Source of the DNA: a virus
Lineage: Duplodnaviria; Heunggongvirae; Uroviricota; Caudoviricetes
IMG/VR virus record: IMGVR_UViG_3300028805_000076
Span: 8,165-72,164 of that record
Length of the DNA: 64,000 nucleotides
Strand: one strand, 5' to 3'
Shown here: one piece after another, positions 34,409-58,678 of the stretch
Layout of the letters: each line of letters begins with the position of its first letter
How positions within the stretch are numbered: the stretch's first letter is position 1
The notes under the pieces: model-generated
The model's input: only the letters and a program-made list of their open reading frames with translations
Databases searched by the model: none
What the model was told of the DNA's origin: nothing
Position numbers and translations under genes: made by a program

Positions 34409-35644
34409 TTAATCGATATGAAGAACTTTCTTAAACATATCCACGACATCTTCATGACCAGTATGTTTTCCTTTATCCTCACTAATCTTGCAAGTATCGG
34501 AGAAGAATGGGTAATTACTGTTCTCTTTGATTGCAAGGAGCTTGATAACGATATTCATTGGTTTGATTTCATCTACGATACCTTTCCAATCGTTTGTCCA
34601 AGCTGTTCCTATACCATAACTGATTTTAGGATATTCTTTTCCAATGACTTTCTGGATATGGCAAGCATCATCGATTGACAATGCATTACTGAAGATGATT
34701 ATCTTTTCCTTTGGGTCGATGCCAAGAGAGCTGTATTTGTCACAAATCTTGTGGAACTGTTCGAAGTTGTCACCACTATCAATTCGAAGTCCATCGAAAC
34801 AGTTTGCAAAGTCTTTGTTGAAGTTTCGAGCAAAGGCATCGAAGCCGTAGGTATCATACAAGTATGTTCCCAAAGCACCCTTGAATGTATGTCTCCATTT
34901 TTCCATTGCAATCTTATTGGCAAGCAGTGGACCATACAGACCAGCGATACCGCTAATCCATTCGTGTGCCATTGTTCCGATTGGTGTGGTGTTGTACTTC
35001 ATTGCAAGGTAAACGTTAGATGTACCAACGCACTTGCCATTTGTTTGACAAAGTGGTGATAGGAATGTTGGTCTATTTTTGGTTGCATTAAGCATTGCTT
35101 TGAGAGCAGTTTCCTCCGTTTCGAAAGAAGAACGTCTTCGAGTGCCGAAATCAGCCCATACGCATCCATTGTCAATCATTTGTGCTGCCTTGACAAACGA
35201 CTTTGTATAATACTTTTTGTAATCGAATTTTTTGTCAAGTTCAGTAATCTTGTAATAGAGTTCTGAAACGATTGCAAGAACCATTACTTCTAGCAGAACA
35301 GTTTCTGCCCACAGACCTTCGAAAATGATATGCAGATGCCCATCTGTATCTTGTGAAACGTTAACAAGGTCGGAATTGAATCGGAAACCACGAAGATAAG
35401 TGAAGAACCATTGTGGAAGGTACTTGCACTTTTCCTTCATAAAGTTTATTTCCTCTTCTGTGATTGTCAATGTTTCGAGAGTTTGTATTTCGGCTTTTAA
35501 GAATTGGTCAAAATGTTTTGGATAAACTGTTTTGTTCCTATCAACAAACTCGTACCTTACGATTGCATCTGGAAAGTTATCCACGATTGCGCAGCACATT
35601 GTAAGTTTGTACAAGTCTGTATCTGTAAAGTGTTTAATAATCAT
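34409..35644 (-). CDS. NAPRTase-family phosphoribosyltransferase (PncB/NadV-like; NAD salvage)
   Basis: TDLYKLTM, FGTRRRS and GTMAHEW motifs; start set at ATG 35644, 5 nt below the upstream gene. Confidence 0.6.
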   Translation of the reverse strand: MIIKHFTDTDLYKLTMCCAIVDNFPDAIVRYEFVDRNKTVYPKHFDQFLKAEIQTLETLTITEEEINFMKEKCKYLPQWFFTYLRGFRFNSDLVNVSQDTDGHLHIIFEGLWAETVLLEVMVLAIVSELYYKITELDKKFDYKKYYTKSFVKAAQMIDNGCVWADFGTRRRSSFETEETALKAMLNATKNRPTFLSPLCQTNGKCVGTSNVYLAMKYNTTPIGTMAHEWISGIAGLYGPLLANKIAMEKWRHTFKGALGTYLYDTYGFDAFARNFNKDFANCFDGLRIDSGDNFEQFHKICDKYSSLGIDPKEKIIIFSNALSIDDACHIQKVIGKEYPKISYGIGTAWTNDWKGIVDEIKPMNIVIKLLAIKENSNYPFFSDTCKISEDKGKHTGHEDVVDMFKKVLHID

Positions 35645-40181: not shown

Positions 40182-40931
40182 TTAGACTATCTTAAACGTT
40201 TCTGTATCAAGTATATATGCTGCTGCATTGTCAAGCATTTTGCAGTTACCGAATTCCATTATATCACCATATGCTACTTTGTAGTCTTTATCATAATAAG
40301 CTTGTATAGTGTGGCCGAATACTTGCTTGATGTTTCTGATTTTATTGTCTTCTTTAGCTACATCTTCTTGCGTTTCGTGTACGTCTGCCCAAATGCAAGA
40401 GCTGAAAGCATCATATCCACCTCTGTAGAACGATACCATATAAAACAATTCCATTCCATTTGGACTGTTTGGCAATTCATTTAATGTAGTGCTGATTAAG
40501 TTAATGTCTATTTCTTTATCGCCAAATACTTTGTTATACCAAGAACTATTGATTCCTGCGTGGGTAAACAATATATCATCAGCAACGAATGAAATATTGA
40601 ATAAATTAAGCTTCTCTACAAACAATGAATGGATTTCATCATGATGTTCTTTAGAATGCCTACTATGATAATATGACAGATTATAATAGCTGTCATATAC
40701 ATATGGGAAATCGTGGTTTCCAAGCAGAAGCACTACTTTTTCCATATTTTCTTGCTTGAATGCTATAATCTGTTTGAAAATATCGATTGCAGTCAAAACA
40801 TCTATATGCTCAAAGTCATATGGGTCTAAATAGTCACCAAGGAATATAACCTTGTCATATTGAGATATATCTTCACACGGCTTTTTCCAAAAATCTCTAC
40901 CGTGAACATCTGGTATTACTAAAATTTTCAT
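40182..40931 (-). CDS. calcineurin-like metallophosphoesterase
   Basis: DVHG, GDYLD and GNHD motifs. Confidence 0.6.
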   Translation of the reverse strand: MKILVIPDVHGRDFWKKPCEDISQYDKVIFLGDYLDPYDFEHIDVLTAIDIFKQIIAFKQENMEKVVLLLGNHDFPYVYDSYYNLSYYHSRHSKEHHDEIHSLFVEKLNLFNISFVADDILFTHAGINSSWYNKVFGDKEIDINLISTTLNELPNSPNGMELFYMVSFYRGGYDAFSSCIWADVHETQEDVAKEDNKIRNIKQVFGHTIQAYYDKDYKVAYGDIMEFGNCKMLDNAAAYILDTETFKIV

Positions 40932-41057
40932 ATCTTAAAAATTGTAAATATATCGATATTATATAAAAAAAATATTAGAATAAAAAAAAATTACTATTAT
41001 ATTATATTTTAATTTAGTTCTAAAATACCTTATATTTATTATTATAAATATAAAATT

Positions 41058-44000
41058 ATGGAGATAACTAATAGTATTGTCAAGAATTGTTTAACTGAAT
41101 ATGTACAAGATAGGTTTCAATTATTGACTGAAGACCAAAAAAGAACAATTCGCAACAAAATAACAAGGGGTGTTTCATCAAGAGTACCTCATCGTGTCGA
41201 TGATACCAAAATGATTGAGAAATTGGTTGATGATATATGGAATACATATGTTCTTCACCCACTTCACGATGGGGTTCATCATAGGCAAAATGATGAAATC
41301 ACTATAATCAATCAGAACATTGAAAGATTGATTCCATATGTTATAAAACAAAAAAGTGATAATGAATCTGAAAATGTTACTTACTATATTACAACAAATC
41401 CAAGAATTCGTAACAGTTGGGAGAACTTGATACAATCACAAAGGCAGAACAGAAATGTAACTTTGTGGGGAAACGATGGTGGAGATTTGACTTATTGGGA
41501 TGTAAACAAACGTTATAATGATGCTGTAAATTCTGCTAAAAACACTAAAATTGAAGGCAAGTACCATTACTCTGTTTACAAGGTAGAAAACTACGATACA
41601 CCAATTGAAGGGTTGGGAATGACAGTTAGTGAACTTGGACAGTATACTGGAGGAAAAGGCTCGCTAAAATGTGTTCCGTTGTGCTATACACAATCTCTAA
41701 ATACGTATAACAATTACACAAAAGGCAATGAATACAACATGTATGCTCTACTGCGTGACGGTTGGCAGAATGAACCATGCAAAATGACAGAAGGTTATCC
41801 ATTGGACAGCTATGGTTTGTCAATACTATTTGTAATTGTAGACCCTAATGGAAACATTGCATACAACAATGTAAGATGGAATCACGGACCAAAGGGGTAT
41901 CCAAGAAGTGTTGACAATATATTCACTTATAAGGAATTGGCAGAAATTGTTGGTAGCGATGTAATGGAACAAATTAACACTACTGCTGATGTGGACCAAT
42001 CGTTACGTTTTACATATGAGGTTGAAACTAAACTTAAAGAAGGTCAAGATATTAACGACATATTTATGTCTAAAGGTACAGAACGCTGTGGTTATATACC
42101 AGTTTGTTATATGCATAAATGGAATTTTCTTGATTCTTCAAAGTCTTTGTTATGTGACGAATGGTTCGATGGTGTTGGTAGTTTTCATCCAAATGGTTTT
42201 AGTTATGTCTATAAAAGCAACTTATATAACTTTATTGATTTTAATGGAGAACTTGTTTGGGATAGACCGCTTGAAGAATGGTTTAATCACATTGATTCGT
42301 GGTCATTTGATGTTTATGGCTTGTGTAGGGTTATGAAAGACTATCATTATAATTGGTTAAAGACTGATGGTACACTATTATTTAATAACCAACAACAAGA
42401 ATGGCTAGATAGAGCTAGTGATTTTCATAATCAAATTGCTTATATAAAATTACATGGTAAATACAATTATATTAGAACTGATGGTTCATTGGTTTGGGAT
42501 TATGATGACACACAATATTGGTTTGATGATGTTGCTGATAAAGGTTTTAATAACTCCAATGTTGCTATGGTAACAATTGACAGATTGGTTAATTTATTGA
42601 AAACAGATGGAACACTAGTTTGGAATAAACCACCTGAATTATGGTTTAATCACATTGTTGCTAATGATAGTAACAAAGATATATACCAAGTAGAACGTTC
42701 CAATAAATATAATTTCTTAAGAATGGATGGTACATTGGTTTGGCAGAAACCTTTTAATGAATGGTTTACATCAATTGGAGCATTCTATAATGGTTTGGCA
42801 AAAGTAACTACATCATTTGGTGAAACATATAATTTTATTAAAATGGACGGAACATTGCTGTTTGACGAAACAGATGATACAAAACATTTTGATAAAATTG
42901 GTAATTTCGCTAGTGGACCAGCATTTGTTTGCATAAATAATAAATATAATTTCATTAGAGAAGACGGAACTTATATTTGGGATAAACCAATAGGGCAATG
43001 GTTTGATAGTGTTAGCGAATATTTTAGAGAAGGTTTTGCTTGTGTGCGCAAGAAAGGAGTTGCAAATTTTATATCTACAGAAGGAAAGTTGTTATGGAAG
43101 AAACCATTAAAAGATTGGTTCAGTGGTGTAGACCCTTTTTATCAAGGGATAGCACAAGTACGAAAGAATGGCAAAAATAATTACATACGAACAAACGGGA
43201 AATTAGTTTTGAATAAACCATTTGATGAGTGGTTTTTCTGGATGGGTAAGGTTATAAATAGCCCTAATATATTTATTGTAAGAGATGCAATGAGATATAA
43301 CTATATTAAAGATGGTGAATTGTTATATAACCAACCGCATACAAAATGGTTTACTGATATAAGCAGAATGCTTGATAAAATCAATGATAATATATCTGGC
43401 TTCCTTGTACAAAAGGGATATAGGCACAATTTCTTGAAACTTGATGGAACACTTCTCAATAGCAGTTTCGTAAGTAAAAGTGAATTAGAATCTATAATTC
43501 GAAGAATAAAACATCAATCGTCCAATATACAAGAATCCTTAAGGGAATATGTAACTAAAAATTTACAACTTCTTACTGAAGACCAGAAGAAGACAATTCG
43601 TAACAAGATTGCAAGAGGTATTGTTTCAATGACTAATCTTGATGTAAACAGTACAGAAGTACAATCGTTAGTAGATAATGTTTGGAACATTTACGTTGTA
43701 CACCCAATTGAAGGCGAAAAGCGTCAGAATGACGAGATTACTGTAATTAATCAGAACATTGAAAGATTAGTACCGTATGTATTGAAGCAAAATGATTCTG
43801 AAAATTACTTTATAAGCAGCAATCCAAGGATTCGTAAAAGTTGGGAAAACTTGATACAAACCCAAAGGCAGAACAGACAAACCAATATATGGCAAGACAA
43901 TGATAATTTGCTTTATTGGAACACAAATAAAAAGTATAATGATGCAATAAATGCAGCAACAAGTGAAGAAATTAAAGGCAAGTATCATTATAGTGTGTAT

Positions 44001-47000
44001 AAGATAGAAGATTACAATACACCAATTGAAGGCTTGGGAATGACTGTTACAGAACTTGGCAAGTATACTGGTGGACAAGGCGCAGTTCCTTTGTGTTATA
44101 CACAATCTCAAGGTACATATAACAGTTATACTGAAAACAATCAATTTAATATGTATGCTGTGTTGCGTGATGGATGGCAGAATGAACCTTGTGAGATTGA
44201 AGAAGATTATCCATTGGATAGCTACGGTTTATCAATGATATTTGTAATTATTGATGAAAATGGAAAGATTGAATACAGTAATGTTAGATGGAATCACGGA
44301 CCAAGAAATTACAAAAGAAGTGTTGACAACATATTCTCGTACAATGAATTGAGGGATATTGTTGGAAGTAATGTAATTAAGCAAGTTGGGGCAAATGTAG
44401 AAATAGACACATCGTTACAATTGACATATGAGGTAGAGAAAAAGTTGAAACAAGACTTATCTATTTACCAAATATTTGGTAATGTTGGCTTTTTTAATGA
44501 CGGTTTGGCAAAGGTTTTCTATTCTGGTTTATACAATTACATAGATTCATCTGGAGACTTACTAACTGATGAATGGTTTGACTTTTGTTCTCCATTTCAA
44601 AATGGGCTTGCTGTGGTACGAAAAGGACATAAGGCAAATTATATAAAGACAGACGGTACTTATTTATACAACACAGATAATACTGATGATTGGTTTACTA
44701 TGGCAAGTTATTTTGATGAAAATGGTTCTGCTATCGTTGGAAAGAATCATAAATACAATTTTATTCTAAAAGATGGTACATTCATTTGGAAAGGTGAATG
44801 GTTTGATTGGGTTGGTGATTTTATTAATGATATTGCTCTAGTTAAAAAAGATAACAAAGCTAATTTTTTAAGATTTGATGGTACATTAGTTTGGAATTAT
44901 GAAAATACAAATGATTGGTTTAATGATGCTACTAATTTTAGTGCGGATTATCATGTCTCATTGGTTCAAAAAAATGGTAAATTTAATTATTTGAAGACTG
45001 ATGGTACATTTGTTTGGAATTATCTTGACACAAAGAAATGGTTTGATGGTTCTTATCATTTTTTTGATGGTATAGCTCAAGTTAAAGTCAACTATAAACA
45101 TGAAGAAAAATGGAACTACCTCAAACTAGATGGAACTTTTTTATGGAAGAAGCCACTAAAACAGTGGTTTGATAATGCTTATAGGTTTGATGAAGGTGTT
45201 GGTATAATAGAATATAAAGGCAAAAAAAATTGGTTAACAGCCAAAGGTGAAATATTTTGTCAAGATATGTGGTTTGATGGGGTTGGAACATTTCACGAAG
45301 GGATTACTAAAGTAGAAATAAACGGTAAATTTAACTTTTTAAATAGTAATGCTAAGTTATTGTGGGGGTCTTACGATGACACAACAGATTGGTTTGATTA
45401 CGTTGATAGGATTGAGCAAGGGTATGCTAAAGTAAGAAAACAAGGACGTTGGAACATATTACGACCAGATGGTAAATTATTGTGGGATTATTCAAATCCT
45501 CAAGATTGGTTTAATAATATTGGACCACTTGATAAAGAAGAAATAATATCTGTTTCAAAAGATGGTAAAAGTAATTATTTAAATCTTCAAGGTAAACTTC
45601 TAAACCAAAATTGGTTTGATAGTTGTTTTGTATTTGAGAATGGAGTTGGTAAAGTTCAAAAAGACCAACACATGAATCTAATCAGAAAAGATGGCACATT
45701 TGTATGGAACAGACCATTGAAAGATTGGTTTATTTTCATTGGCGAAGTAGACGATTTTGGTTGTGCAGAGGTATACACACATTATCAAGGTGCAACTGTT
45801 GGTAACGTATTGAAAATAGAAGATGGTACGTTACTGTGGAAGAAAAGTCCAAAATTCTGGTTTCGTTACATTGACGTTAATGAGATATTACCAAATGGTG
45901 TAAAAGGTTATAGAGTCTCAAAGGCAATAAAGACTATGATGAAATATAACTTCTTAAAGTTAGATGGTACTCTTCTTTTCAAAACATTTTTATCTGTTCA
46001 CAGCTATAAGTTGGCAATGAATGCTTTAAGTAATAATGATAATCAAATAATACAAGAATCTTTACGAGAATATGTTAAAGATAAGTCGTTGTTGGCTGAA
46101 GCCGATTCACGAATTAAGGGAACTAGAAACACAATTAAAAGGGGTATTGCTGCAATAACCAAACTTGACATTAATGACCCTATTGTAGAAAACTTGACAA
46201 ATGATGTTTGGAATACTTATGTTGTTCATCCTATCGCAAATGAAAATCGTCAGCTTGACGAATATATTGCCATTAGGAATAATGCTGACAGACTTCTTAT
46301 GTACGCTGTAAAACAGAACCAAGATGGTACATATTACATAACAAAAAATCCACGTTTGAAAAATGGCTTTGAGAATCTTATTCAAGCACAAAGGAAAGAT
46401 AATACAAAACAAATACTTGATAATAATGCAAATTTGTTCCAATGGTATAACACACAGAAATACAATCAAGCATTGGAAAACTTACAAGCCAATAGTAAAA
46501 AAATACAAGAAGGCAAATATAGTTACAAAGCATATCCAATCACTGATTTTTATGATAACATTAAAGGCTTGGGAATGACTGTTGAAGACCTTGGGGAGTG
46601 GACTGGTAGTGAAGAAGCTGTCGAATTGTGCTATACTCAATCTGAAGATACGTATAACCAATATACACACGGCAACAAATACAATATGTATGCTTTATTG
46701 CGCCAAGGTTGGCAAGACGAGCCTTGTGAGAAAGGAGAAGGTTATCCTTATGACAGCTACGGTCTTTCTATGATATTCGTAATTATCGATTATAATGGTG
46801 ATATAGCTACAAGTAATGTTAGATGGAATCACGGTGACAATTCTTATTCTAATGTAGATAATATGTTCACCTATTCTAAATTAGTACAAATTGTTGGTTC
46901 TAACATACTTAATAAAATACATTGTACATATAATGATGACATAACTCGTAATATGTCACTTATAGTAAGACTTGAAAAAGCTTTAAGCAATATTGATGCA

Positions 47001-48194
47001 ACTGATGTTGATTCATTTTGCGATGCTTTCGATAACATTTCACGCCAATATGAAGATTTGGAAAATGTTGAGCTATTTACTCTTGGAAGTGATAGGCTAA
47101 TAACCGTAGAATATGAAGAAACATATGCAAATATATATGATATAAAAGAGAAGCATTTTATTTCCGATGAATGGTTTTCTAGTATTTCGAATTATTCATG
47201 CGGCTATAGTACAGTACAATTCTTAAATGATGGAACATGGAATTTTATTGATGAAGAAGGCAATTTTTTAAATGACAAGCGTTATGACCACTGTTATGAT
47301 TTTGACAACGGATACGCTGTTGTTAAAAATAATCAAGAAATGTATGAAGTAATAAATATAAAAGGTGAATCATTATTTACCACAGATAGACGAGTCAGGT
47401 TTATTGGAGAAGAACGTGTAGCTTATGAAGACATTAATTATTCTTTATTATTGGATATGCGCGGTAAAAAAGTAGTTGACACATATTTTGATTATATTGG
47501 TTATTTTTACTGCGAAGGATATATTACAGTAAGTGTTGATAATAGAGTTAATTTTATAGACGCAAATGGAAAATATTTATCAGACGTTTGGTATCTTGAT
47601 GTTGAAAGACCATTTTCAAACGGCTGTGCTATAGTTAAATATGATAATGGTATGATAAATATGATTAATAAAAAATGTCAAAAGCTACTTAAAGAAGATG
47701 CTATAAGATGGAAAACAATGTATGATTATGTATATGAGAATGTATTGTACTATATATTTGATTTAGGCAGTCGTATTAAAGAATTTGTAAAAACAAACGG
47801 TCAAATTATATGTGATGCTCTAACTTTTAGTGATTCAAATAAACTTAGGAGGTTAAAAATACAATTTTTAGATTATAGTTGGAACTATTTAAAAGATGAT
47901 GGTACAATGTTATTACCATATAATTGTTATGAAATTTCAAATTTCTATGAGCATGATTATATTCAAGATATAAAGTTTGCAATTATCAAAAAAGAACCAA
48001 GTAAAGAATGTATTATTGATGTAAACGGAAATGAAATGACAGAAGAATATATATCAATGTATCCTTTAACAAGAACTGAAAACTATGTTGCTTTAGGTGT
48101 AAAAGGTCCAGATGATGGTTACAAAATTGATTATCAGTTTAACGCAATACCAATAAGTAAGGATGAATTTGTTAAGATGATAATGGATAATTAA
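41058..48194 (+). CDS. giant protein (2378 aa) of three tandem ~820-aa modules: unknown N-terminal Cys/His domain + KWG-like beta-propeller repeats
   Basis: module N-termini LTEDQKRTIRNKI...NQNIERL..YV.KQ at ~aa 1, ~820 and ~1660; conserved block YHYSVYK..GLGMTV.ELG.YTG...CYTQS..YN.YT..N.YNMYA.LR.GWQ.EPC...YP.DSYGLS..FVI.D.NG....NVRWNHG; then dozens of (K)YNFI..DGT..W..P...WFD....F..G.A.V repeats. Confidence 0.6.
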   Translation: MEITNSIVKNCLTEYVQDRFQLLTEDQKRTIRNKITRGVSSRVPHRVDDTKMIEKLVDDIWNTYVLHPLHDGVHHRQNDEITIINQNIERLIPYVIKQKSDNESENVTYYITTNPRIRNSWENLIQSQRQNRNVTLWGNDGGDLTYWDVNKRYNDAVNSAKNTKIEGKYHYSVYKVENYDTPIEGLGMTVSELGQYTGGKGSLKCVPLCYTQSLNTYNNYTKGNEYNMYALLRDGWQNEPCKMTEGYPLDSYGLSILFVIVDPNGNIAYNNVRWNHGPKGYPRSVDNIFTYKELAEIVGSDVMEQINTTADVDQSLRFTYEVETKLKEGQDINDIFMSKGTERCGYIPVCYMHKWNFLDSSKSLLCDEWFDGVGSFHPNGFSYVYKSNLYNFIDFNGELVWDRPLEEWFNHIDSWSFDVYGLCRVMKDYHYNWLKTDGTLLFNNQQQEWLDRASDFHNQIAYIKLHGKYNYIRTDGSLVWDYDDTQYWFDDVADKGFNNSNVAMVTIDRLVNLLKTDGTLVWNKPPELWFNHIVANDSNKDIYQVERSNKYNFLRMDGTLVWQKPFNEWFTSIGAFYNGLAKVTTSFGETYNFIKMDGTLLFDETDDTKHFDKIGNFASGPAFVCINNKYNFIREDGTYIWDKPIGQWFDSVSEYFREGFACVRKKGVANFISTEGKLLWKKPLKDWFSGVDPFYQGIAQVRKNGKNNYIRTNGKLVLNKPFDEWFFWMGKVINSPNIFIVRDAMRYNYIKDGELLYNQPHTKWFTDISRMLDKINDNISGFLVQKGYRHNFLKLDGTLLNSSFVSKSELESIIRRIKHQSSNIQESLREYVTKNLQLLTEDQKKTIRNKIARGIVSMTNLDVNSTEVQSLVDNVWNIYVVHPIEGEKRQNDEITVINQNIERLVPYVLKQNDSENYFISSNPRIRKSWENLIQTQRQNRQTNIWQDNDNLLYWNTNKKYNDAINAATSEEIKGKYHYSVYKIEDYNTPIEGLGMTVTELGKYTGGQGAVPLCYTQSQGTYNSYTENNQFNMYAVLRDGWQNEPCEIEEDYPLDSYGLSMIFVIIDENGKIEYSNVRWNHGPRNYKRSVDNIFSYNELRDIVGSNVIKQVGANVEIDTSLQLTYEVEKKLKQDLSIYQIFGNVGFFNDGLAKVFYSGLYNYIDSSGDLLTDEWFDFCSPFQNGLAVVRKGHKANYIKTDGTYLYNTDNTDDWFTMASYFDENGSAIVGKNHKYNFILKDGTFIWKGEWFDWVGDFINDIALVKKDNKANFLRFDGTLVWNYENTNDWFNDATNFSADYHVSLVQKNGKFNYLKTDGTFVWNYLDTKKWFDGSYHFFDGIAQVKVNYKHEEKWNYLKLDGTFLWKKPLKQWFDNAYRFDEGVGIIEYKGKKNWLTAKGEIFCQDMWFDGVGTFHEGITKVEINGKFNFLNSNAKLLWGSYDDTTDWFDYVDRIEQGYAKVRKQGRWNILRPDGKLLWDYSNPQDWFNNIGPLDKEEIISVSKDGKSNYLNLQGKLLNQNWFDSCFVFENGVGKVQKDQHMNLIRKDGTFVWNRPLKDWFIFIGEVDDFGCAEVYTHYQGATVGNVLKIEDGTLLWKKSPKFWFRYIDVNEILPNGVKGYRVSKAIKTMMKYNFLKLDGTLLFKTFLSVHSYKLAMNALSNNDNQIIQESLREYVKDKSLLAEADSRIKGTRNTIKRGIAAITKLDINDPIVENLTNDVWNTYVVHPIANENRQLDEYIAIRNNADRLLMYAVKQNQDGTYYITKNPRLKNGFENLIQAQRKDNTKQILDNNANLFQWYNTQKYNQALENLQANSKKIQEGKYSYKAYPITDFYDNIKGLGMTVEDLGEWTGSEEAVELCYTQSEDTYNQYTHGNKYNMYALLRQGWQDEPCEKGEGYPYDSYGLSMIFVIIDYNGDIATSNVRWNHGDNSYSNVDNMFTYSKLVQIVGSNILNKIHCTYNDDITRNMSLIVRLEKALSNIDATDVDSFCDAFDNISRQYEDLENVELFTLGSDRLITVEYEETYANIYDIKEKHFISDEWFSSISNYSCGYSTVQFLNDGTWNFIDEEGNFLNDKRYDHCYDFDNGYAVVKNNQEMYEVINIKGESLFTTDRRVRFIGEERVAYEDINYSLLLDMRGKKVVDTYFDYIGYFYCEGYITVSVDNRVNFIDANGKYLSDVWYLDVERPFSNGCAIVKYDNGMINMINKKCQKLLKEDAIRWKTMYDYVYENVLYYIFDLGSRIKEFVKTNGQIICDALTFSDSNKLRRLKIQFLDYSWNYLKDDGTMLLPYNCYEISNFYEHDYIQDIKFAIIKKEPSKECIIDVNGNEMTEEYISMYPLTRTENYVALGVKGPDDGYKIDYQFNAIPISKDEFVKMIMDN

Positions 48195-48249
48195 AAAGTG
48201 AACTATATACTTGTTGACACCGAAAAATTATTTATGCAAAATTTAAAAA

Positions 48250-48297
48250 ATTGGCACCAGTTAGGTAAAAAAATCTGACTGATGCCATTTTTTTGTA
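48250..48297 (+). terminator. intrinsic terminator, paralog of 3858-3905
   Basis: ggcaccagt...actgatgcc + T7. Confidence 0.5.
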
Positions 48298-48392: not shown

Positions 48393-49124
48393 ATGTTATA
48401 TCTAAAATTATTTCAAACGGAACAAGAAAGACAAGCGTGTACAGAGACACAAGAATATGTGTCTTATACAAAAGAAAGTGATAAGGTGAATATACACCCA
48501 AAAGCATTATTCTGTAAATTAACACTTAACAATGGTGAAGTGGTTGAAATTGAAGGTAGTGGAGAATTAACATATGCTATGACAATACCATATACAGCAA
48601 CAACAGTCAGTGTTGAAATTGGTGACATATGTACAAGTATTAGTTATAGTGTTTTCTATGGTTGTAGTGGATTAACAAGTGTAACAATAGGAAATAGTGT
48701 TACAAGTATTGGTTATGCTGCTTTCCGTAATTGTAGTGGTTTAACAAGTTTAGATTTAGGCAATGGTGTTACAAGTATTGGTAGGGAGGCTTTCTATGGT
48801 TGTAAATCATTAACAAGTATAACGATACCAGATAGTGTTACAAGTATTGGTGAGGGTGCTTTCGAAGATTGTAATCCATTAACAAGTGTAACAATAGGAA
48901 ATAGTGTTACAAGTATTGGTGCTACTGCTTTCTATAATTGTAATAATTTAACTAGTATTACCTCATTAGCAACAACAGCACCATCAATTTCAAATAATAC
49001 ATTCCGATATGTAAAAACAAGTGGTACATTATATGTTCCACAAGGTAGTAGTGGATATGATACTTGGATGCAGAATGCAGACTATTATTTAGGAAAATAT
49101 AATTGGACTAAGGTAGAGCAATAA
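48393..49124 (+). CDS. BspA-type leucine-rich-repeat protein (copy 1)
   Basis: repeated NSVTSIG.xAF.xC..LTS.TI units. Confidence 0.55.
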   Translation: MLYLKLFQTEQERQACTETQEYVSYTKESDKVNIHPKALFCKLTLNNGEVVEIEGSGELTYAMTIPYTATTVSVEIGDICTSISYSVFYGCSGLTSVTIGNSVTSIGYAAFRNCSGLTSLDLGNGVTSIGREAFYGCKSLTSITIPDSVTSIGEGAFEDCNPLTSVTIGNSVTSIGATAFYNCNNLTSITSLATTAPSISNNTFRYVKTSGTLYVPQGSSGYDTWMQNADYYLGKYNWTKVEQ

Positions 49125-49709: not shown

Positions 49710-51230
49710 TTAAAAATCGTTAATAGTGCTTTCCATCATTTCTATATCCACCTCACCTTTATCTATACGCTTGCTTTCCAACAAGAAGAAAGCCTCTGTT
49801 TTAAGCTTGAACGCTTCTTTTATTTCATCGCCAACGATTCTCAATACAAAGCCTTCACGAGGTACTTTATTATGACAGAGAGGTTCATTCTTTTCCATAA
49901 AGAATCTTTTTTCCTTACCAAGAAGTTCAAGTACATTTTCATTCCAATGATTTTTGGTATCAACTTCTGGATAAAAATCAGCCAACTTGCCACGGAAAAG
50001 CACGTCAAGTACGAAAAGCCTGTCAGCAATTTCTGGGCGTTCATTCATTAGATTCTTTGTCCAATTTATCACTTCATCAACTTCCCATTCTTTTTTAGAG
50101 CCATCTTCGTTAGTTGTTGTTATTCTATATGGCATAAATTTGTTATGACCAACTTCACATCCATAATCGTAATTTCCAGTAGCAAACATTTTTTGCAAGC
50201 CAGTTTCATAACCAAAAATTTCGCCATAAACGGTCATACCTTCTTGTATAGCCCCTTTCAATATCTCGTTATATTCAGCCCATACGTCTGTTTTATAATA
50301 ACATTCTGTGCTATTTTCGTTGATATATTGGTTTCTAATTTGGTGTCTAGATGAATATATGGTATCATATACATATTCTATCTTTTGGAATTTGATAGGC
50401 AATGAATGGCAAACCTTATTCACTATGTTGGTTAGCCAACCAAATGGTGTACTATATTGCTTTGGTCTTTTTGTTAGAACATTTGCAAATATGGCAGAAG
50501 TGCCATGTATTTTAGTAGTAATAATTACTTCAGTATCTGGTTTAATCAAATTAAAATTCTTCTTAAGTGGCTGTGTGTCATAATGAAAGAAGAATTGACC
50601 TGGAATCATTCGGTCATATCGTTTGATTTTATTTTGGCTCCACGTATATTCTCGTACAATTCTTTTTTTCGGTGGTATATATGGAACATATGCTTTGATA
50701 AACAATTCACCATTGACAGTATCAAAGTCGTAACCGATATAATCCTTCAAATTGATATTAACTATTTCTGGGCAAAACTTTTCCATTGTTTCTATACTAA
50801 ACAAGAAACCGCTAGAAGCAACACCTCTAAGTCTAATCATTTTTACTCTTCGGTGTTTGGTAAAAAAACCAGTGTTTTCTTTAATCAACGATTCCAATCT
50901 TGAAACTTCTTCCAAATCTTGATTTGTTTTTGCCAATTGAAGCTGTGTAAGGAGTTTACCTACTTGAACAGCATTTGCGTTCTTGTCGAATTCGCTTTGT
51001 TCAAACAGATTATTTACTGACAAGAACCGTTCATTCAATTGTGTTTCATTTTCAGCATAGAACATCAAATCACCTTGCTTTACCAAATCTCGTCTGACTA
51101 CAATTGTTTGCCCGTTTACTTTTGTTGATGCAAGAAAATCAGAATTTGGTATAGGTTCAATCTCGCCAACCTCAATGATTGACGCACAGTATTCGTGGTT
51201 TATATGTTCTGATTGTTCTAGTATTTTCAT
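49710..51230 (-). CDS. RNA ligase, Rnl2-like nucleotidyltransferase with a ~200-aa N-terminal extension
   Basis: motif I TKIHGTS (T4 Rnl2 is KIHGTN), motif IV EGFVLR, motif V FKLK. Confidence 0.55.
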   Translation of the reverse strand: MKILEQSEHINHEYCASIIEVGEIEPIPNSDFLASTKVNGQTIVVRRDLVKQGDLMFYAENETQLNERFLSVNNLFEQSEFDKNANAVQVGKLLTQLQLAKTNQDLEEVSRLESLIKENTGFFTKHRRVKMIRLRGVASSGFLFSIETMEKFCPEIVNINLKDYIGYDFDTVNGELFIKAYVPYIPPKKRIVREYTWSQNKIKRYDRMIPGQFFFHYDTQPLKKNFNLIKPDTEVIITTKIHGTSAIFANVLTKRPKQYSTPFGWLTNIVNKVCHSLPIKFQKIEYVYDTIYSSRHQIRNQYINENSTECYYKTDVWAEYNEILKGAIQEGMTVYGEIFGYETGLQKMFATGNYDYGCEVGHNKFMPYRITTTNEDGSKKEWEVDEVINWTKNLMNERPEIADRLFVLDVLFRGKLADFYPEVDTKNHWNENVLELLGKEKRFFMEKNEPLCHNKVPREGFVLRIVGDEIKEAFKLKTEAFFLLESKRIDKGEVDIEMMESTINDF

Positions 51231-51236
51231 AGTAAG

Positions 51237-51905
51237 CTATTCTAATTTTTGGCATTCTTCTTCAGAGTACAAAGAATGCAGTTTATTAATCCACCAAGCG
51301 GTTTTGACTTTAACTGATGGTCGTTGTTGACCTTTCATTAATGTTGAACGTTTGAAAACAACACCTTCCTTGATATTAAGTGGGTTGCCAATATCGGTTA
51401 TTTTTTGTATTTGTGAAATTATGTCATAATCTAAAGACCCAACATATACAAGTTGAGCCACTTCAATTCCACAATCAGAAAACAATTTCCAAAAAATATT
51501 TGGTTCTATATATCCTTTCTTTTTCAAGAAAACATCAATTAGAGCCAAATGCATATCATCACCTTCGACATGTTTACCAGCAAAAGATTGCTCACCATAC
51601 CATTCAAAAAAGAATGTTATTTCGTCAATGCCGTTAAACACACCTTTTTTCTTTGAATTTTCAGCAATAATATTTTCAAGTATTTCTCCGTATTTAGATG
51701 CTTTGAAAAATTTTACTGCGTCTCCAAGCTGTTCGCTGTTTTCATCTACTGTAACTGTTCTTGAGCCATAATTAGCCCATTGCTTCTTTTTACAATTATA
51801 TGCCGCACAAAAATTTTGCCCGTCCAACTTATTAAAACCCCAAACAGTTTCACCTTTCAGTGTACCATCGTCTTGTATTCTAGGAATACTGTTATAATGT
51901 TTCAT
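51237..51905 (-). CDS. second covalent nucleotidyltransferase (RNA/DNA ligase-like adenylyltransferase domain)
   Basis: motif I NKLDGQN (KxDG), EGVVFK, VKVK. Confidence 0.45.
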   Translation of the reverse strand: MKHYNSIPRIQDDGTLKGETVWGFNKLDGQNFCAAYNCKKKQWANYGSRTVTVDENSEQLGDAVKFFKASKYGEILENIIAENSKKKGVFNGIDEITFFFEWYGEQSFAGKHVEGDDMHLALIDVFLKKKGYIEPNIFWKLFSDCGIEVAQLVYVGSLDYDIISQIQKITDIGNPLNIKEGVVFKRSTLMKGQQRPSVKVKTAWWINKLHSLYSEEECQKLE

Positions 51906-55352: not shown

Positions 55353-55952
55353 ATGTCTTTACTTTTAAAAATACCAGAAAAATTTCAACCTATTAGATAT
55401 ATAGAAGAAGTTATATCACAATTTATCACAGAAGCTGTTGATAAAGTAATAGATGATGATAGATATAATCATTGTGGATTTGAAATGCTTATTGGTATTC
55501 CAGGTTGCGGTAAATCAACATATATAAAAAAAATACAGATAGATAATGCTGATATTGTTGTTATAAGTCCAGATAATATTCGTAGAGAATTAACTAGCAA
55601 TGTATCAGACCAATCACAAAATGTAAATGTTTGGAATATTGCGTTAGAAAAAATAATTCAGAACATTTCTAATGGCAAATATGTAATATTAGATGCAACA
55701 AATGTTAGCACTTATTATCGAACACAATTGCTTAATAACATAAAAAATGCTGTCGGTAATAACGTTAAAACATATGCAACTGTATTTTATAGTGACCCAG
55801 ATATATCCAAAAAAAGAATATCAACAGATATTGCAAATGGTATAGATAGAGCCAATGTTCCATATGAAATCATTGATAAGATGTATGAAGATTATTTGGA
55901 AACATTGCAAACTATTAAAACAGAAGGTTTTGATAAAATATTTTGGCAATGA
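55353..55952 (+). CDS. P-loop polynucleotide-kinase-like protein
   Basis: GIPGCGKST Walker A and ILDATN; small ~200-aa kinase fold near the RNA ligases. Confidence 0.45.
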   Translation: MSLLLKIPEKFQPIRYIEEVISQFITEAVDKVIDDDRYNHCGFEMLIGIPGCGKSTYIKKIQIDNADIVVISPDNIRRELTSNVSDQSQNVNVWNIALEKIIQNISNGKYVILDATNVSTYYRTQLLNNIKNAVGNNVKTYATVFYSDPDISKKRISTDIANGIDRANVPYEIIDKMYEDYLETLQTIKTEGFDKIFWQ

Positions 55953-56447: not shown

Positions 56448-56510
56448 AATATAATGTTTTTTTTAATTCTTTATTGTTTCAGAATATTTATAAATAAATA
56501 TTTCGCTTAA

Positions 56511-57671
56511 ATGAAAAAGGAAGAATTAATTGAAATAAAGAAAGATAAAACTGGTACTGGTTTGCTTATAGAGCACGATGGATATATCAAACCAAACAGT
56601 CAACTAATCAAGGAAAGTATGGATGGTGAATGGCATTGTCCATTTCCATTCGTAGTTGATGCCGTATTTCAAAAGGCTGACGTAAAAAATGCGAATGGTC
56701 GTATTTATCCAAGAAAAATACTTGAAAGGGAAATTGAAAACTATCAGCAAAAAATACGTGAACATAGAGCACTAGGGGAATGCTATACACCAGATGTATT
56801 AGTCTTATGTGTAGATGGTTGGAAATGTATTTCTAGTATCACAGAAAATGATTCTGTATTAACTTTAAACACCTCTACCAACGAAATTGAAATCCAAAAA
56901 GTATCCAAAAAAATTGAATATGATTATGATGGTGAAATGATTAGGTTAGAAAGCAGTAACATATCTGATTTAGTTACACCAAATCATGGGTATCCAATAT
57001 ATAATGATAAAGATATTTTTGAAAATTTTTACACTGCTGAAGACATATTTAATGGTAATATAAATAATATTGAAAAATGTTATATTCCTAAATTTGTACC
57101 ATCTTTTGCTAATTGTGTTTCATTAAACAAAAATAAATTAATAGTTACAAAAGAAAATTATTGTGGGAAAGTAATGTGTATAGAAGTACCAAATCATACT
57201 TTTTACGTTATGTCAAATGGTAAATGCCATTGGAGTAAAAACTGCAATCACCCTAGTGATTCCACTATAGACCTTGGAAGAATCAGCCATAATATCATTG
57301 AATTGCATTGGGAAGGAAATACAGTAGTAGGTAAGCTTGAATTGAATATCAGTGAAGGTTTTAGAAGAAGCGGTATTTGCTCAACTCTTGGTGATACTGT
57401 TGCTAATCTTCTATTGAATGGCTATAAGATTGGTGTATCTTCTAGAGCAGTAGGAAGCGTAGAACAGAAACTTGGTGTACTAGTGGTTGGAGATGACCTA
57501 GAACTTATTTGTTGGGATGTGGTTAGCGACCCTAGTACAAATAATGCTTGGATAAGTATGAATGGTAAAGAAGAAATGCAAACTTGGATTGAAAATAAAG
57601 AAAATGTTGGAAATTCAAAAAATATTATTTCTGAAAAAATTACCAAAATAAAAAATATTTTAAATGGTTAG
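56511..57671 (+). CDS. protein with a mini-intein; extein resembles a T4 gp21-like prohead protease (low confidence)
   Basis: Hint blocks: CYTPDVLVL..DGWKCISSI (A), LVTPNHGYPIY (B), VMCIEVPNHTFYVMSNG (F), SKN|C (G). Confidence 0.5.
   Translation: MKKEELIEIKKDKTGTGLLIEHDGYIKPNSQLIKESMDGEWHCPFPFVVDAVFQKADVKNANGRIYPRKILEREIENYQQKIREHRALGECYTPDVLVLCVDGWKCISSITENDSVLTLNTSTNEIEIQKVSKKIEYDYDGEMIRLESSNISDLVTPNHGYPIYNDKDIFENFYTAEDIFNGNINNIEKCYIPKFVPSFANCVSLNKNKLIVTKENYCGKVMCIEVPNHTFYVMSNGKCHWSKNCNHPSDSTIDLGRISHNIIELHWEGNTVVGKLELNISEGFRRSGICSTLGDTVANLLLNGYKIGVSSRAVGSVEQKLGVLVVGDDLELICWDVVSDPSTNNAWISMNGKEEMQTWIENKENVGNSKNIISEKITKIKNILNG
56781..57242 (+). other. mini-intein (Hint domain, 154 aa, no endonuclease domain)
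   Basis: Cys1 at aa 91, terminal Asn at aa 244, +1 Cys. Confidence 0.5.
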
Positions 57672-57691: not shown

Positions 57692-58678
57692 ATGATATTT
57701 ATTAATATAAATATTATTTTTTGTATGGGTAAAAAATTAACAACAGAAACGTTTAAAATACAATTAGAAAAAGAACATCCAAATCTAGAATTGTTATCTG
57801 AATATAATGGAAATAAAAATTATATAACTGTACGATGTAAAATACATAACTACGTTTTTAATACAAAACCAAATTGGCTTCATAAAGGGCAAGGATGCCA
57901 AAAATGTTATGATGAAAAAAGAGGTGAAACAACAAGGAAAAAAATAGAAGATTTTATAAAAGAAGCGAATTTAATTCATAAAAATAAATATGATTATTCT
58001 AACGTTGTTTATAAAAACAATAAAGCCAAAATCTGTATAATTTGCCCAATTCATGGTGAATTTTGGCAAACTCCAAATAAACATTTAAGTGGTCAAGGAT
58101 GTCCAAAATGTTCTGGTAAAAATAAAACAACAGAAGAAATTATTGATATTTTCAACAAAATTCACAAAAATTATTATAACTATAATAAAGTTGAATATAA
58201 AAATAATAAAGCTAAAATATGCATAATTTGTCCTATTCATGGTGAATTTTGGCAAACACCAGAAAAACATATTCAAGGAGAGGGTTGTCCATTATGTAAA
58301 TCTAGTAAATTAGAAATGACTGTTAGAAATTTTTTATTAGATAATAATATTGATTTCATAAGGCAAGCCAAATTTAATTGGCTAGGCAAACAATCATTAG
58401 ATTTTTATTTGCCAATATATAATATTGCAATCGAATGCCAAGGAGAACAACATTTTAAAGAATTTAGTGGGAAATTTAAACTTAAAAATACATTAGATAA
58501 AAGAATACAATTAGATATAACAAAAAATGATTTATGTAACAAAAATGGGATAAAAATATTTTATTTCTTTAATAGAAAATGGGAACATAAATCTTTAGAT
58601 AAAATTTTCAATAACATATATAATTCCAATGTGATATTTGAAAATGAAATTAGTAAATTAAAAGATATTTTAAGTTAA
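57692..58678 (+). CDS. zinc-finger repeat protein with a C-terminal DUF559/Vsr-like PD-(D/E)xK nuclease domain
   Basis: two ~60-aa repeats ...CPIHGEFWQTP.KH..G.GCP.C; C-terminal DFYLPIYNIAIECQGEQH. Confidence 0.45.
   Translation: MIFININIIFCMGKKLTTETFKIQLEKEHPNLELLSEYNGNKNYITVRCKIHNYVFNTKPNWLHKGQGCQKCYDEKRGETTRKKIEDFIKEANLIHKNKYDYSNVVYKNNKAKICIICPIHGEFWQTPNKHLSGQGCPKCSGKNKTTEEIIDIFNKIHKNYYNYNKVEYKNNKAKICIICPIHGEFWQTPEKHIQGEGCPLCKSSKLEMTVRNFLLDNNIDFIRQAKFNWLGKQSLDFYLPIYNIAIECQGEQHFKEFSGKFKLKNTLDKRIQLDITKNDLCNKNGIKIFYFFNRKWEHKSLDKIFNNIYNSNVIFENEISKLKDILS

What the first reader, a model, noticed from the sequence alone, without database searches (positions are those of the whole stretch)
41058..48194. 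A 2378-aa protein built from three tandem ~820-aa modules (unknown Cys/His domain plus KWG-like beta-propeller repeats)
Each module opens with LTEDQKRTIRNKI...NQNIERL. A ~250-aa block with invariant residues follows: YHYSVYK, GLGMTV.ELG.YTG, CYTQS, NMYA.LR.GWQ.EPC, YP.DSYGLS..FVI.D.NG and NVRWNHG, which is suggestive of a Cys/His enzyme. Next come 10-15 tandem ~37-aa repeats of the KWG/WG type (YNFI..DGT.VW..P...WFD....F..G.A.V). The third module is more diverged, so the DNA also carries ~2.4-kb internal direct repeats. I cannot place the conserved N-terminal block in any known domain family. The gene has its own AT-rich upstream region and a strong terminator.
Basis: partly seen in the sequence, partly recalled or inferred. 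Interest (0 to 1): 0.7.

Follow-up and report, generated by a model that had tools for sequence, protein, structure and literature searches.

The report
Triple-module jumbo-phage protein, undescribed domain
A 278-kDa protein of an uncultivated giant phage is three fused copies of one module (an undescribed, probably enzymatic domain plus a fast-evolving repeat "binding" domain); the same module is multiplied in related giant phages and may be a set of effectors delivered into the host.

Summary
ORF 41058-48194 (+) encodes 2378 aa in three diverged modules, and the same form occurs in at least four other assemblies, so it is not an artefact. Each module has four parts:
- a short leader helix followed by a conserved L-x-E-[GAD] linker;
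- a helical region;
- a ~180-aa alpha/beta core;
- WG repeats (PF14903): 12, about 13 and about 5-6.

The family is not tiny. An exhaustive profile search finds 974 cluster representatives. The IMG/VR members located lie mostly on large viral contigs (many 100-422 kb). Targeted searches found none in GenBank phages or GTDB genomes. Members occur as single genes, tandem paralogs or 2-6-module fusions.

Against a 91%-identical ortholog, the leader, helical and core parts have dN/dS of 0.09-0.28 (0.51 for the module 3 core). The WG regions have 0.78-0.92.

My best reading (confidence about 0.35) is a polyvalent effector polyprotein, possibly cut at the L-x-E boundaries by the phage's gp21-type prohead protease. 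Its chemistry and location are untested.

The parts
41058..48194 (+). Complete ORF: 2378 aa, 278.5 kDa, pI 5.3. No signal peptide or TM segment.
   Evidence: The exact protein is on two ENA contigs.
40932..41057 (.). AT-rich divergent intergenic region between the metallophosphatase gene (-) and the big ORF (+). A TATAAATA lies 7 nt before the ATG.
   Evidence: No promoter class could be assigned.
41058..41129 (+). Module 1 leader: amphipathic helix (aa 2-19, low pLDDT) plus a coil holding L22-T23-E24|D. This is a candidate propeptide and gp21-type cleavage site.
   Evidence: secondary structure and pLDDT. (motif conserved in 80 of 87 instances).
41130..41474 (+). Module 1 helical region (aa 25-139).
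   Evidence: dN/dS is 0.28 for aa 1-139, which includes the leader.
41475..42017 (+). Module 1 conserved alpha/beta core (aa 140-320) carrying Y171, C209, D250, Y252, G253, S255, R273, W274, N275, H276 and D286.
   Evidence: conservation over 184 instances. (AF2 pLDDT 93-98). (no family).
42105..43508 (+). Module 1 WG repeats: 12 units of about 38-40 aa.
   Evidence: dN/dS 0.92.
43524..43583 (+). Module 1/2 boundary helix and linker: NIQE|SLRE|YVTKNLQLLTE|D (three L/I-x-E sites).
43893..44432 (+). Module 2 core (aa 946-1125), all conserved residues retained.
   Evidence: dN/dS 0.18.
44517..46028 (+). Module 2 WG repeats, about 13 units.
   Evidence: dN/dS 0.78.
46041..46103 (+). Module 2/3 boundary helix and linker: NQIIQE|SLRE|YVKDKSLLAE|A.
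46428..46967 (+). Module 3 core (aa 1791-1970), more diverged but with all conserved residues retained.
47157..47990 (+). Module 3 degenerate WG-like repeats, about 5-6 recognisable.
48244..48296 (+). Intrinsic terminator: long hairpin followed by a U-run, 50 nt after the stop codon.
56511..57671 (+). gp21-type (Peptidase_S77) prohead protease gene, interrupted by an intein-like insert. It is the candidate processing enzyme; the functional link is inferred, not shown.

Best explanation
**What the protein is.** It is a cytoplasmic phage protein with no signal peptide or TM segment, built from three head-to-tail fused copies of an autonomous module. In related uncultivated jumbo phages the same module is encoded as single genes, as tandem paralog arrays, or as 2- to 6-module fusions.

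**What each module contains.**
1. A short amphipathic leader helix followed by a conserved [LIVM]-x-E-[GASD] linker.
2. A helical region.
3. A ~180-aa alpha/beta core with a near-invariant polar constellation (C209, D250, S255, R273, N275, H276, D286, plus Y171, Y252, G253 and W274). I read this as the active site of an undescribed enzyme, most simply a Cys- or Ser-nucleophile hydrolase or transferase.
4. A WG-repeat domain, probably propeller-like, that evolves much faster than the rest. I read this as the target-binding part.

**Proposed mechanism.** The protein is a polyvalent host-directed effector. Conserved catalytic heads are aimed at variable host targets by diversifying repeat domains, and several specificities are carried in one polypeptide.

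I further infer the following (not shown). The L-x-E boundaries are cleavage sites for the phage's gp21-type prohead protease. On this view the polyprotein is loaded into the prohead through its leader and is cut into three effectors. These would then be delivered with the DNA, as for T4 Alt and the internal proteins, and for the paralogous ejection proteins of phiKZ and SPN3US.

**Shown:** the architecture, the existence and distribution of the family, the conservation pattern, the selection asymmetry, motif conservation at boundaries, and the presence of a gp21-type protease.

**Inferred:** enzymatic activity, the effector role, packaging and cleavage.
For: **Modules are autonomous**
- Single-module homologs of 474-634 aa exist.
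- There are five tandem single-module genes in L004.
- In the same 387-kb phage as the three-module ortholog there is a six-module 3289-aa ORF plus an 835-aa single-module gene.
- 31 of the 153 proteins examined carry 2-4 cores.

**Enzyme-like conservation**
- 11 positions are at least 94% conserved over 184 instances that share only about 20-30% identity.
- All three window modules retain them.
- C209 sits at the N-terminus of a short helix in a confident model.

**Binding-domain logic**
- The core is followed by WG repeats in at least 83 of 153 proteins.
- In others it is followed by BspA-LRR or FNIP repeats.

**Selection asymmetry against the 91% ortholog**
- Leader/helical regions and the module 1 and 2 cores: dN/dS 0.09-0.28. 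Module 3 core: 0.51.
- WG regions: 0.78-0.92, at similar dS.
- Neighbouring enzymes: 0.03-0.23.

**Effector network**
- 2 of 39 family proteins carry ART-PolyVal (best E = 1.3e-14).
- The core is also fused or adjacent to a further unknown domain, which is in turn fused to ART-PolyVal-like regions.

**Processing hypothesis**
- [LIVM]xE[GASD] occurs in the first 45 aa of 80 of 87 instances, against 1-10 of 87 in control windows.
- It occurs at every module boundary in the 3- and 6-module proteins.
- It lies in a coil between a low-confidence leader helix and the body.
- A similar I-x-E-containing helix is at the extreme C-terminus of 25 of 153 proteins, against 8 of 453 control windows.
- T4 gp21 cuts after L/I-x-E. 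T4 Alt (an ART) is trimmed at both termini, and the internal proteins carry N-terminal targeting propeptides (PMC9026906).
- Giant-phage head and ejection proteins form paralog families with conserved propeptides (PMC5694885).
- The window encodes an S77 protease.
- Six family-bearing contigs encode homologs of it that are at least 62% identical.
Against: - L-x-E is a very short motif. The residues after it (D-S-R-x-K) are also conserved, so the motif could be structural rather than a cleavage site.
- The cleavage specificity of this phage's protease is unknown. phiKZ-type enzymes use S/A-x-E instead.
- No other protein in the window shares the leader at a significant level.
- The gene does not lie in a recognisable head module. 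It sits among small and nucleotide-metabolism genes.
- High dN/dS in the WG repeats could reflect relaxed constraint rather than diversifying selection. Divergence is low (dS about 0.05-0.18), so the estimates are noisy.
- A 278-kDa protein with propeller-like domains is a demanding cargo for ejection.
Confidence: 0.35

Rival explanations
1. Intracellular effector that is not packaged. The modules act inside the infected cell in host takeover or counter-defence. The conserved leader and L-x-E segment is a structural or oligomerisation element, and the fusion merely co-expresses several specificities.
For: - The enzyme-plus-binding-domain logic, the selection asymmetry and the fusion network are the same as for the best explanation.
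- The gene lies among non-structural genes, with its own intergenic region and terminator.
- Residues on both sides of the L-x-E are conserved.
- There is no significant leader similarity on other window proteins.
Against: - It does not explain why a leader-like I-x-E helix recurs at the extreme C-terminus of single-module proteins.
- It does not explain why every module boundary keeps the motif in an exposed coil.
Confidence: 0.27
2. Virion-surface adhesin, receptor-binding or decoration protein set. The conserved N-terminal part anchors to the particle or carries a surface-polysaccharide-modifying enzyme. The variable WG, LRR or FNIP repeats bind diverse host surface structures, and multiple paralogs broaden host range, as with multi-tailspike phages.
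For: - A conserved N-terminus with a variable C-terminus and many paralogs per genome is the classic receptor-binding-protein pattern.
- The repeat regions evolve fast.
- WG and BspA-LRR repeats are typical of surface proteins. This rests on my own knowledge of those families.
- In L004 the paralog array lies near large unknown ORFs and a GH108 lysin.
Against: - Internal repetition of an 'anchor' 3-6 times in one chain makes no sense for a fibre.
- There are no trimerisation, beta-helix, collagen or fibre signatures, and no PHROG or Pfam tail-fibre hits.
- The gene is not next to tail or baseplate genes in the window.
- Fusions are with ART-PolyVal, an intracellular-acting domain.
Confidence: 0.2
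3. Non-catalytic structural or scaffold protein, for example an inner-body or packaging-associated component. On this view the conserved polar residues bind a metal or ligand, or stabilise the fold, rather than catalyse a reaction.
For: - There is no match to a catalytic fold.
- Cys, His, Asp and Asp could form a metal site. This is inference only.
- Paralog families of abundant non-enzymatic head proteins exist in phiKZ-like phages.
Against: - Eleven near-invariant residues, including Ser, Arg and Asn, across very divergent sequences are more typical of an active site.
- The consistent pairing with repeat binding domains suggests a targeted activity.
Confidence: 0.12
4. Assembly artefact or decaying pseudogene created by tandem duplication.
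For: - Internal 2.4-kb repeats could mislead assemblers.
- One other assembly breaks the gene at aa 707/718.
Against: - The copies are only 63-77% identical at the DNA level.
- The reading frame is intact over 7.1 kb.
- The same architecture occurs in at least four other assemblies and in 91-92% orthologs.
- The conserved parts are under purifying selection.
Confidence: 0.02

Closest known systems
T4 head-internal ejected proteins (Alt ADP-ribosyltransferase, IPI-III) and phiKZ/SPN3US ejection-protein paralog families
   Same: - Encoded by a phage that has a gp21-type protease.
- Short N-terminal leader ending in L/I-x-E. A second such helix at the C-terminus parallels the processing of Alt at both termini.
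- Conserved leader with a divergent body.
- Paralog expansion within a genome.
- Association with ART domains.
   Different: - No sequence similarity to the T4 CTS, Alt, the internal proteins or PF12699.
- Presence in the virion and cleavage are untested.
- Modules are concatenated into homopolymeric polyproteins, which is not described for those systems.
- The gene is not in a head-gene cluster.
Polyvalent proteins of phages and conjugative elements (Iyer et al. 2017, PMC5512222)
   Same: - Very large multi-domain phage proteins.
- The family is linked by fusion to ART-PolyVal and to other unknown domains.
- That work proposed proteolytic release of units from polyvalent proteins.
   Different: - The window protein repeats one module three times rather than combining different effector domains.
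- None of the hallmark domains (MPTase, SNF2-methylase, ArdC-N, LPDs) is present.
- The core matches no Pfam model, and that includes any LPD families Pfam holds.
PcfJ-like domain (PF14284)
   Same: - Foldseek lists several PcfJ-like phage proteins among weak hits.
- hhalign produces a collinear alignment with the conserved Cys, the beta2 Arg, the turn Gly and the R-x-N in register.
- Both are found in phages and mobile elements. PcfJ-like domains can sit upstream of diversified regions (PMC5758913).
   Different: - No HMM hit.
- hhalign P = 0.14-0.85.
- PcfJ's H-C, E-G and T-x-E signatures are not shared.
- Our core has an extra D-x-YG-x-S loop and a C-terminal H...D extension.
- PcfJ itself has no known function.
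WG_beta_rep / KWG repeats (PF14903)
   Same: The C-terminal part of each module is a bona fide array of these repeats (97 bits).
   Different: - The repeat family has no established function or solved structure.
- Fusion to this N-terminal core is not described in the libraries searched.
Papain-like / NlpC-P60 / transglutaminase Cys-His-Asp enzymes, and GNAT acyltransferases
   Same: - The order Cys ... His ... Asp, with the Cys at a helix N-terminus. The Cys-His gap is 67 aa and the His-Asp gap is 10 aa.
   Different: - There are no sequence-profile hits.
- His276 lies in the loop after strand 4, not on a strand.

Membership tests
WG_beta_rep (PF14903) | Tandem ~35-aa WG-containing repeats scoring above the Pfam gathering threshold | tested here: met
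   97.3 bits against a 25.6 cut-off, E = 5e-28. A local repeat HMM finds 12, about 13 and about 5-6 units.
WG_beta_rep (PF14903) | Beta-propeller-like fold of the repeat array | tested here: inconclusive
   Only weak PQQ_2/BamB (E = 6.7e-4) and Beta-prop_ACSF4 (E = 0.007) hits, both below cut-off.
PcfJ-like (PF14284) | Match to the family HMM | tested here: not met
   No PF14284 hit for the whole protein or for 43 diverse cores, even at E <= 10.
PcfJ-like (PF14284) | Profile-profile or fold-level homology | tested here: inconclusive
   hhalign of the family against an 11-sequence PcfJ profile gives a collinear alignment but P = 0.14-0.85. Foldseek BFVD hits annotated PcfJ-like have probability 0.10-0.33; the top hits are unnamed phage proteins, up to probability 0.98 and TM 0.34.
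Polyvalent proteins (Iyer et al. 2017) | Two or more different effector or LPD domains in one polypeptide | tested here: not met
   The window protein has one module type repeated three times, and Pfam finds only WG repeats. At the family level, 2 of 39 members carry ART-PolyVal.
Polyvalent proteins (Iyer et al. 2017) | Delivery into the recipient cell with the DNA | not testable with these tools
   Needs virion proteomics or infection assays.
T4-type capsid-targeted, gp21-processed head proteins | N-terminal propeptide ending in L/I-x-E, in a phage that encodes a gp21-type protease | tested here: met
   The motif is in 80 of 87 instances and at all module boundaries. An S77 protease is in the window and on six other family-bearing contigs. 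The motif definition comes from PMC9026906.
T4-type capsid-targeted, gp21-processed head proteins | Actual cleavage and presence inside the mature head | not testable with these tools
   No proteomic data are available; the phage is uncultivated.
T4-type capsid-targeted, gp21-processed head proteins | Leader shared with other packaged proteins of the same phage | tested here: not met
   Only non-significant resemblances (E 0.1-10) on other window proteins. Only 64 kb of a genome that may approach 390 kb (the size of the closest relative's contig) could be examined.
Papain-like / transglutaminase / NlpC-P60 cysteine enzymes | Papain-like fold with Cys on a helix and His and Asp on adjacent strands | tested here: not met
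   [not shown]
GNAT acyltransferases | GNAT fold with the acetyl-CoA-binding beta4-alpha3 motif | tested here: not met
   [not shown]
Phage tail fibre / receptor-binding proteins | Fibre or spike domains, or location in a tail or baseplate module | tested here: not met
   No PHROG or Pfam structural hit. The neighbours are metallophosphatase, RNA ligase and an LRR protein.

The most novel reading that the evidence does not exclude
The core is a new enzyme superfamily (about 1000 clusters) found so far only on uncultivated viral contigs, many of them jumbo-phage sized, from what look like gut or rumen-type metagenomes. It would be deployed as 'effector cassettes': homopolymeric polyproteins or tandem paralog arrays. 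Each catalytic head would be steered by a diversifying WG, LRR or FNIP repeat domain. The prohead protease would cut the polyprotein at conserved L-x-E boundaries, so that a single packaged chain delivers several differently targeted effectors into the host. This would be a phage counterpart of polymorphic toxin systems.
Probability: 0.22. Interest if true: 0.8.

Novelty: new variant of a known kind. Interest (0 to 1): 0.62.

Why it matters
- **An uncharacterised family.** Giant phages carry many large proteins of unknown role. Here a single undescribed domain accounts for about 1000 protein clusters and up to ten copies per genome in one related phage, yet it is invisible to Pfam, PHROGs, NCBIfam and the PDB. 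A compact, confidently modelled domain with an obvious candidate active site is a tractable target for structural and biochemical work.
- **A testable polyprotein model.** If the L-x-E boundaries are protease sites, this would be the first example of a homopolymeric effector polyprotein matured by a prohead protease. It would extend the T4 Alt/IP paradigm to uncultivated jumbo phages that, on weak evidence, may infect Bacteroidota.
- **A conflict interface.** The conserved head paired with a fast-evolving repeat tail marks a host-phage conflict interface. That could point to new host targets or defence systems.
- **Even if the packaging idea is wrong.** The family definition, its distribution and the selection asymmetry remain useful for annotation.

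Tried and rejected
- **Word-indexed homolog searches.** They gave only 5 and 2 hits, which wrongly suggested an orphan. The exhaustive profile search corrected this.
- **Megablast and tblastn against GenBank phages.** Three subfamily protein queries and a 24-kb DNA query all found nothing.
- **GTDB genome scan with family motifs.** Nothing found. Only one subfamily's patterns were used, so absence is not proven.
- **AFDB50 fold search.** The library was unavailable.
- **PcfJ link.**
  - I fetched pCF10 PcfJ and eight phage PcfJ-like domains and built a profile.
  - hhalign was not significant.
  - I kept this only as an unproven lead.
- **Conserved-neighbour analysis over 89 loci.** It found mostly unknown proteins and no diagnostic operon partner.
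- **'Domain X'.** It is a real fusion and neighbour partner elsewhere but is absent from this window.
- **T4 late-promoter motif TATAAATA.** Present 7 nt upstream, but not enriched in the window (24 observed against about 19 expected), so I did not use it.
- **Leader motif on other window proteins.** Not significant.
- **Apparent 1661 + 707 aa 'split' version.** It is a break inside module 1 in another assembly, not a fission at a module boundary.
- **DGR-type diversification.** No template-like repeat of the gene lies elsewhere in the window.
Full report
**1. The observation**

The window carries an ATG-initiated ORF at 41058-48194 (+) of 2378 aa. It is 278.5 kDa with pI 5.3. It has no hydrophobic segment that could be a signal peptide or TM helix: the maximum 19-aa hydropathy is 1.0.

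Direct DNA repeats are spaced 2412-2448 nt (copy 1 to copy 2) and 2535 nt (copy 2 to copy 3), at 77% and 63% identity. They define three modules: aa 1-816, 817-1657 and 1658-2378. The N-terminal ~330 aa of modules 2 and 3 are 61% and 43% identical to module 1.

Pfam recognises only WG_beta_rep (PF14903, E = 5e-28). PHROGs recognises nothing. A repeat HMM built from the protein finds 12 WG units in module 1, about 13 in module 2, and only about 5-6 degenerate ones in module 3.

The 126-nt upstream intergenic region is almost pure A+T. A long hairpin followed by a U-run lies 50 nt after the stop codon (dG -22.9 kcal/mol, z = -6.0).

The triplication is not an assembly artefact:
- The copies are diverged.
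- The identical protein is recorded on two contigs.
- Orthologs of 2379-2381 aa at 91-92% identity with the same three modules occur on other contigs, including a 387.5-kb IMG/VR contig.

**2. The genome**

The window looks like part of a large AT-rich phage (30-40% GC) with many small genes. Recognisable genes are:
- a gp21-type prohead protease (Peptidase_S77);
- two RNA ligases and a PNK-like protein;
- a NAPRTase;
- HNH homing endonucleases;
- tRNAs;
- two BspA-type LRR proteins.

No similar DNA exists among 50,697 GenBank phage records. The source contig is 141 kb and the closest relative is 387.5 kb. It is therefore an uncultivated jumbo phage.

Host hints are weak. A crAss001_48-like neighbour occurs in related loci, and the WG and BspA repeats fit the same picture. 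Together they point loosely towards Bacteroidota of gut or rumen-type samples.

**3. The N-terminal block is an undescribed but sizeable family**

Word-indexed searches found only five homologs, all single-module proteins of 474-634 aa that carry the block plus a few WG repeats. An exhaustive HMM search of 1.84 billion cluster representatives found 974 proteins at E <= 1e-3, of which 761 are at E <= 1e-10.

The minimal conserved unit corresponds to module 1 aa ~140-315. Many members also share the preceding helical ~130 aa.

Over 184 domain instances that are typically 20-30% identical to module 1, eleven positions are at least 94% conserved: Y171, C209, D250, Y252, G253, S255, R273, W274, N275, H276 and D286. 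All three window modules keep them.

None of 43 diverse cores matches any Pfam, PHROGs or NCBIfam model, even at permissive thresholds. A family profile finds no PDB sequence at E <= 10.

**4. Structure**

With a 43-sequence alignment, AlphaFold2 gives a confident model of aa 105-322. Mean pLDDT is 83.5, and 93-98 across most of the conserved core. The element order is beta1, short helices, C209 at a helix N-terminus, helix, beta2, long loop (P-x-D-x-YG-x-S), a beta3/beta4 hairpin, the R-W-N-H loop, D286, then two helices.

Fold searches were as follows:
- Foldseek against the PDB finds nothing.
- Foldseek against BFVD finds only uncharacterised phage proteins (best E = 8.7e-4, probability 0.98, TM 0.34). 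'PcfJ-like' proteins recur at probability 0.10-0.33.
- AFDB50 could not be searched.

I followed the PcfJ lead. I took PcfJ from plasmid pCF10, where it sits next to an AcrIIA9-family gene, together with eight divergent phage PcfJ domains, and built a profile. hhalign against the family gives a collinear alignment spanning the whole PcfJ domain. About ten conserved positions fall in register: the beta1 Tyr, Gly, the Cys, an aromatic, Gly, the beta2 Arg, Pro, the turn Gly, then Arg and Asn. The alignment is not significant (P = 0.14-0.85). Homology to PcfJ is therefore neither shown nor excluded, and PcfJ itself has no known function.

**5. Distribution and architecture**

Motif-based scans of IMG/VR recovered 70 + 15 + 2 loci, many on contigs of 100-422 kb. 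A scan of 185,579 species-representative genomes with one subfamily's motifs found none.

In the 89 loci there are 136 family genes (median 565 aa). Up to five sit in one ~16-kb locus, and 12 carry 2-6 cores. Striking cases are:
- a 3289-aa ORF with six modules, followed by an 835-aa single-module gene, in the same 387-kb phage that also has the three-module ortholog;
- five tandem single-module genes in L004.

C-terminal partners are WG repeats in at least 83 of 153 proteins. In others they are BspA-LRR or FNIP repeats, and in 2 of 39 scanned proteins ART-PolyVal at E = 1.3e-14.

A further unknown ~390-aa region ('domain X') is adjacent to family genes in 16 of 89 loci. It is fused to the core in seven proteins, and in L007 it is itself fused to an ART-PolyVal-like region. 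It is absent from this window. No other neighbour is diagnostic.

**6. Selection**

I compared the window protein with the 91%-identical ortholog in L001.

| Region | dN/dS |
|---|---|
| Leader plus helical regions | 0.09-0.28 |
| Cores of modules 1 and 2 | 0.18-0.25 |
| Core of module 3 | 0.51 |
| WG regions of modules 1 and 2 | 0.92 and 0.78 |
| Module 3 C-terminal region | 0.62 |
| Adjacent RNA ligases | 0.03-0.06 |
| Adjacent NAPRTase | 0.04 |
| Adjacent metallophosphatase | 0.23 |

dS is similar across these regions. The gene is therefore functional, with conserved heads and fast-evolving repeat tails. Divergence is low, so these values are approximate, and they cannot separate positive selection from relaxed constraint.

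**7. Module boundaries**

Each module begins with an amphipathic helix, 'N-x-I-I-Q-E-S-L-R-E-Y-V' in modules 2 and 3. A conserved L-x-E-[G/A/D]-D-[S/N]-R-x-K segment follows.

- [LIVM]-x-E-[GASD] is present within the first 45 residues of 80 of 87 instances, against 1-10 of 87 in five control windows of the same proteins.
- It is found at every module boundary of the three- and six-module proteins.
- In the first AlphaFold model, residues 2-19 form a low-confidence helix, 20-24 (holding L-T-E) are coil, and the body starts at residue 25.
- A similar '[RK]-I-I-K-E-S-[IV]-K-K-[YI]-L' helix lies at the extreme C-terminus of 25 of 153 proteins, against 8 of 453 control windows.

The literature provides the parallel:
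- T4 gp21 cleaves after L/I-x-E.
- Head-internal ejected proteins carry N-terminal targeting propeptides of about 10-20 residues.
- Alt, an ADP-ribosyltransferase, is trimmed at both termini (PMC9026906).
- In phiKZ and SPN3US, head and ejection proteins form paralog families of 2-20 members with conserved propeptides (PMC5694885).

The window encodes an S77 protease. Homologs at least 62% identical lie on six other family-bearing contigs. This is the basis for my inference that the boundaries are processing sites.

The inference is unproven for four reasons:
- The motif is short.
- Its flanks are also conserved.
- The specificity of this protease is unknown.
- No other window protein shares the leader significantly.

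**8. Interpretation**

Firmly established:
- The protein is a fusion of three autonomous modules.
- The module core is an undescribed family of about 1000 clusters that was found only on viral (IMG/VR) contigs, many of them jumbo-phage sized.
- Its conservation pattern is that of an active or ligand site.
- It is consistently followed by repeat-type binding domains that evolve much faster.

Most likely (confidence about 0.35 for the full chain): it is a polyvalent effector polyprotein whose units are released at L-x-E sites by the prohead protease and delivered to the host.

Alternatives:

| Alternative | Confidence |
|---|---|
| The same effector logic without packaging | about 0.27 |
| A virion-surface adhesin or receptor-binding set | about 0.20 |
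| A non-catalytic structural role | about 0.12 |
| An artefact | about 0.02 |

**9. Novelty**

The domain itself is unclassified, and the homopolymeric concatenation of an enzyme-plus-binder module is not described for polyvalent proteins or for T4/phiKZ head proteins. The broader kind is known: large multi-domain phage effectors and paralog families. I therefore rate it a new variant of a known kind, of moderate-to-high interest, mainly because it is a large, tractable and completely uncharacterised family with a concrete, testable processing model.

Noticed in passing
window 56511-57671 (+), with 57692-58678 (+): The gp21-type prohead protease gene encodes 386 aa. The S77 match is split by a ~158-aa Hint/intein-like insert (C91 ... 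'VTPNH' ... SKN248|C249). An HNH homing-endonuclease gene lies directly downstream. Relatives on other contigs match the spliced sequence contiguously, so they are intein-free alleles.
   Followed up: partly
window 60628-61224 (-) and 61202-61906 (-): Two overlapping ORFs match the C- and N-terminal halves of the same PHROG (phrog_11143). This may be a split or frameshifted gene, or a programmed frameshift.
   Followed up: no
window 48393-49124 (+) and 59911-60543 (+): Two BspA-type leucine-rich-repeat paralogs (LRR_5, phrog_35892). The first lies right after the big gene's terminator and is absent from the orthologous locus L001. LRR_5 also replaces WG repeats behind the core domain in some family members.
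   Followed up: partly
window 49710-51230 (-), 51237-51905 (-), 55353-55952 (+), 34409-35644 (-): An RNA-repair-like gene set (two RNA ligases and a PNK-like protein) and a nicotinate phosphoribosyltransferase. This suggests countermeasures to tRNA-cleaving and NAD-depleting host defences.
   Followed up: no
window 14595-14779 (-), 21074-21147 (-): Two adjacent, unusually long (91-92 nt) tRNA-like genes, one called with a 4-nt anticodon and one as tRNA-Thr(AGT), plus a tRNA-Gln(TTG).
   Followed up: no
L007:13148-15262, L004:19295-20443, P0089, P0132, P0045, P0113 and others: A second unknown conserved region of ~390 aa ('domain X') with no Pfam match. It is encoded next to family genes in 16 of 89 loci, is fused to the core domain in seven proteins, and in L007 is fused to an ART-PolyVal-like region. 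It is not present in this window.
   Followed up: partly
window 40182-40931 (-); L004:12947-13765 (-): A calcineurin-like metallophosphatase gene lies next to family genes both in the window and in the unrelated phage locus L004. This is possibly a coincidence.
   Followed up: no
window 41043-41050 and 56489-56496: The T4-late-promoter-like octamer TATAAATA sits 7 nt upstream of the big ORF and 14 nt upstream of the protease gene. The motif is not enriched in the window overall (24 observed, about 19 expected).
   Followed up: partly
L170 (plasmid pCF10) 15874-17984: The archetypal PcfJ gene is adjacent to, and overlaps, a gene annotated as an AcrIIA9-family Cas9 inhibitor. This hints that PcfJ-like domains belong to anti-defence neighbourhoods.
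   Followed up: no
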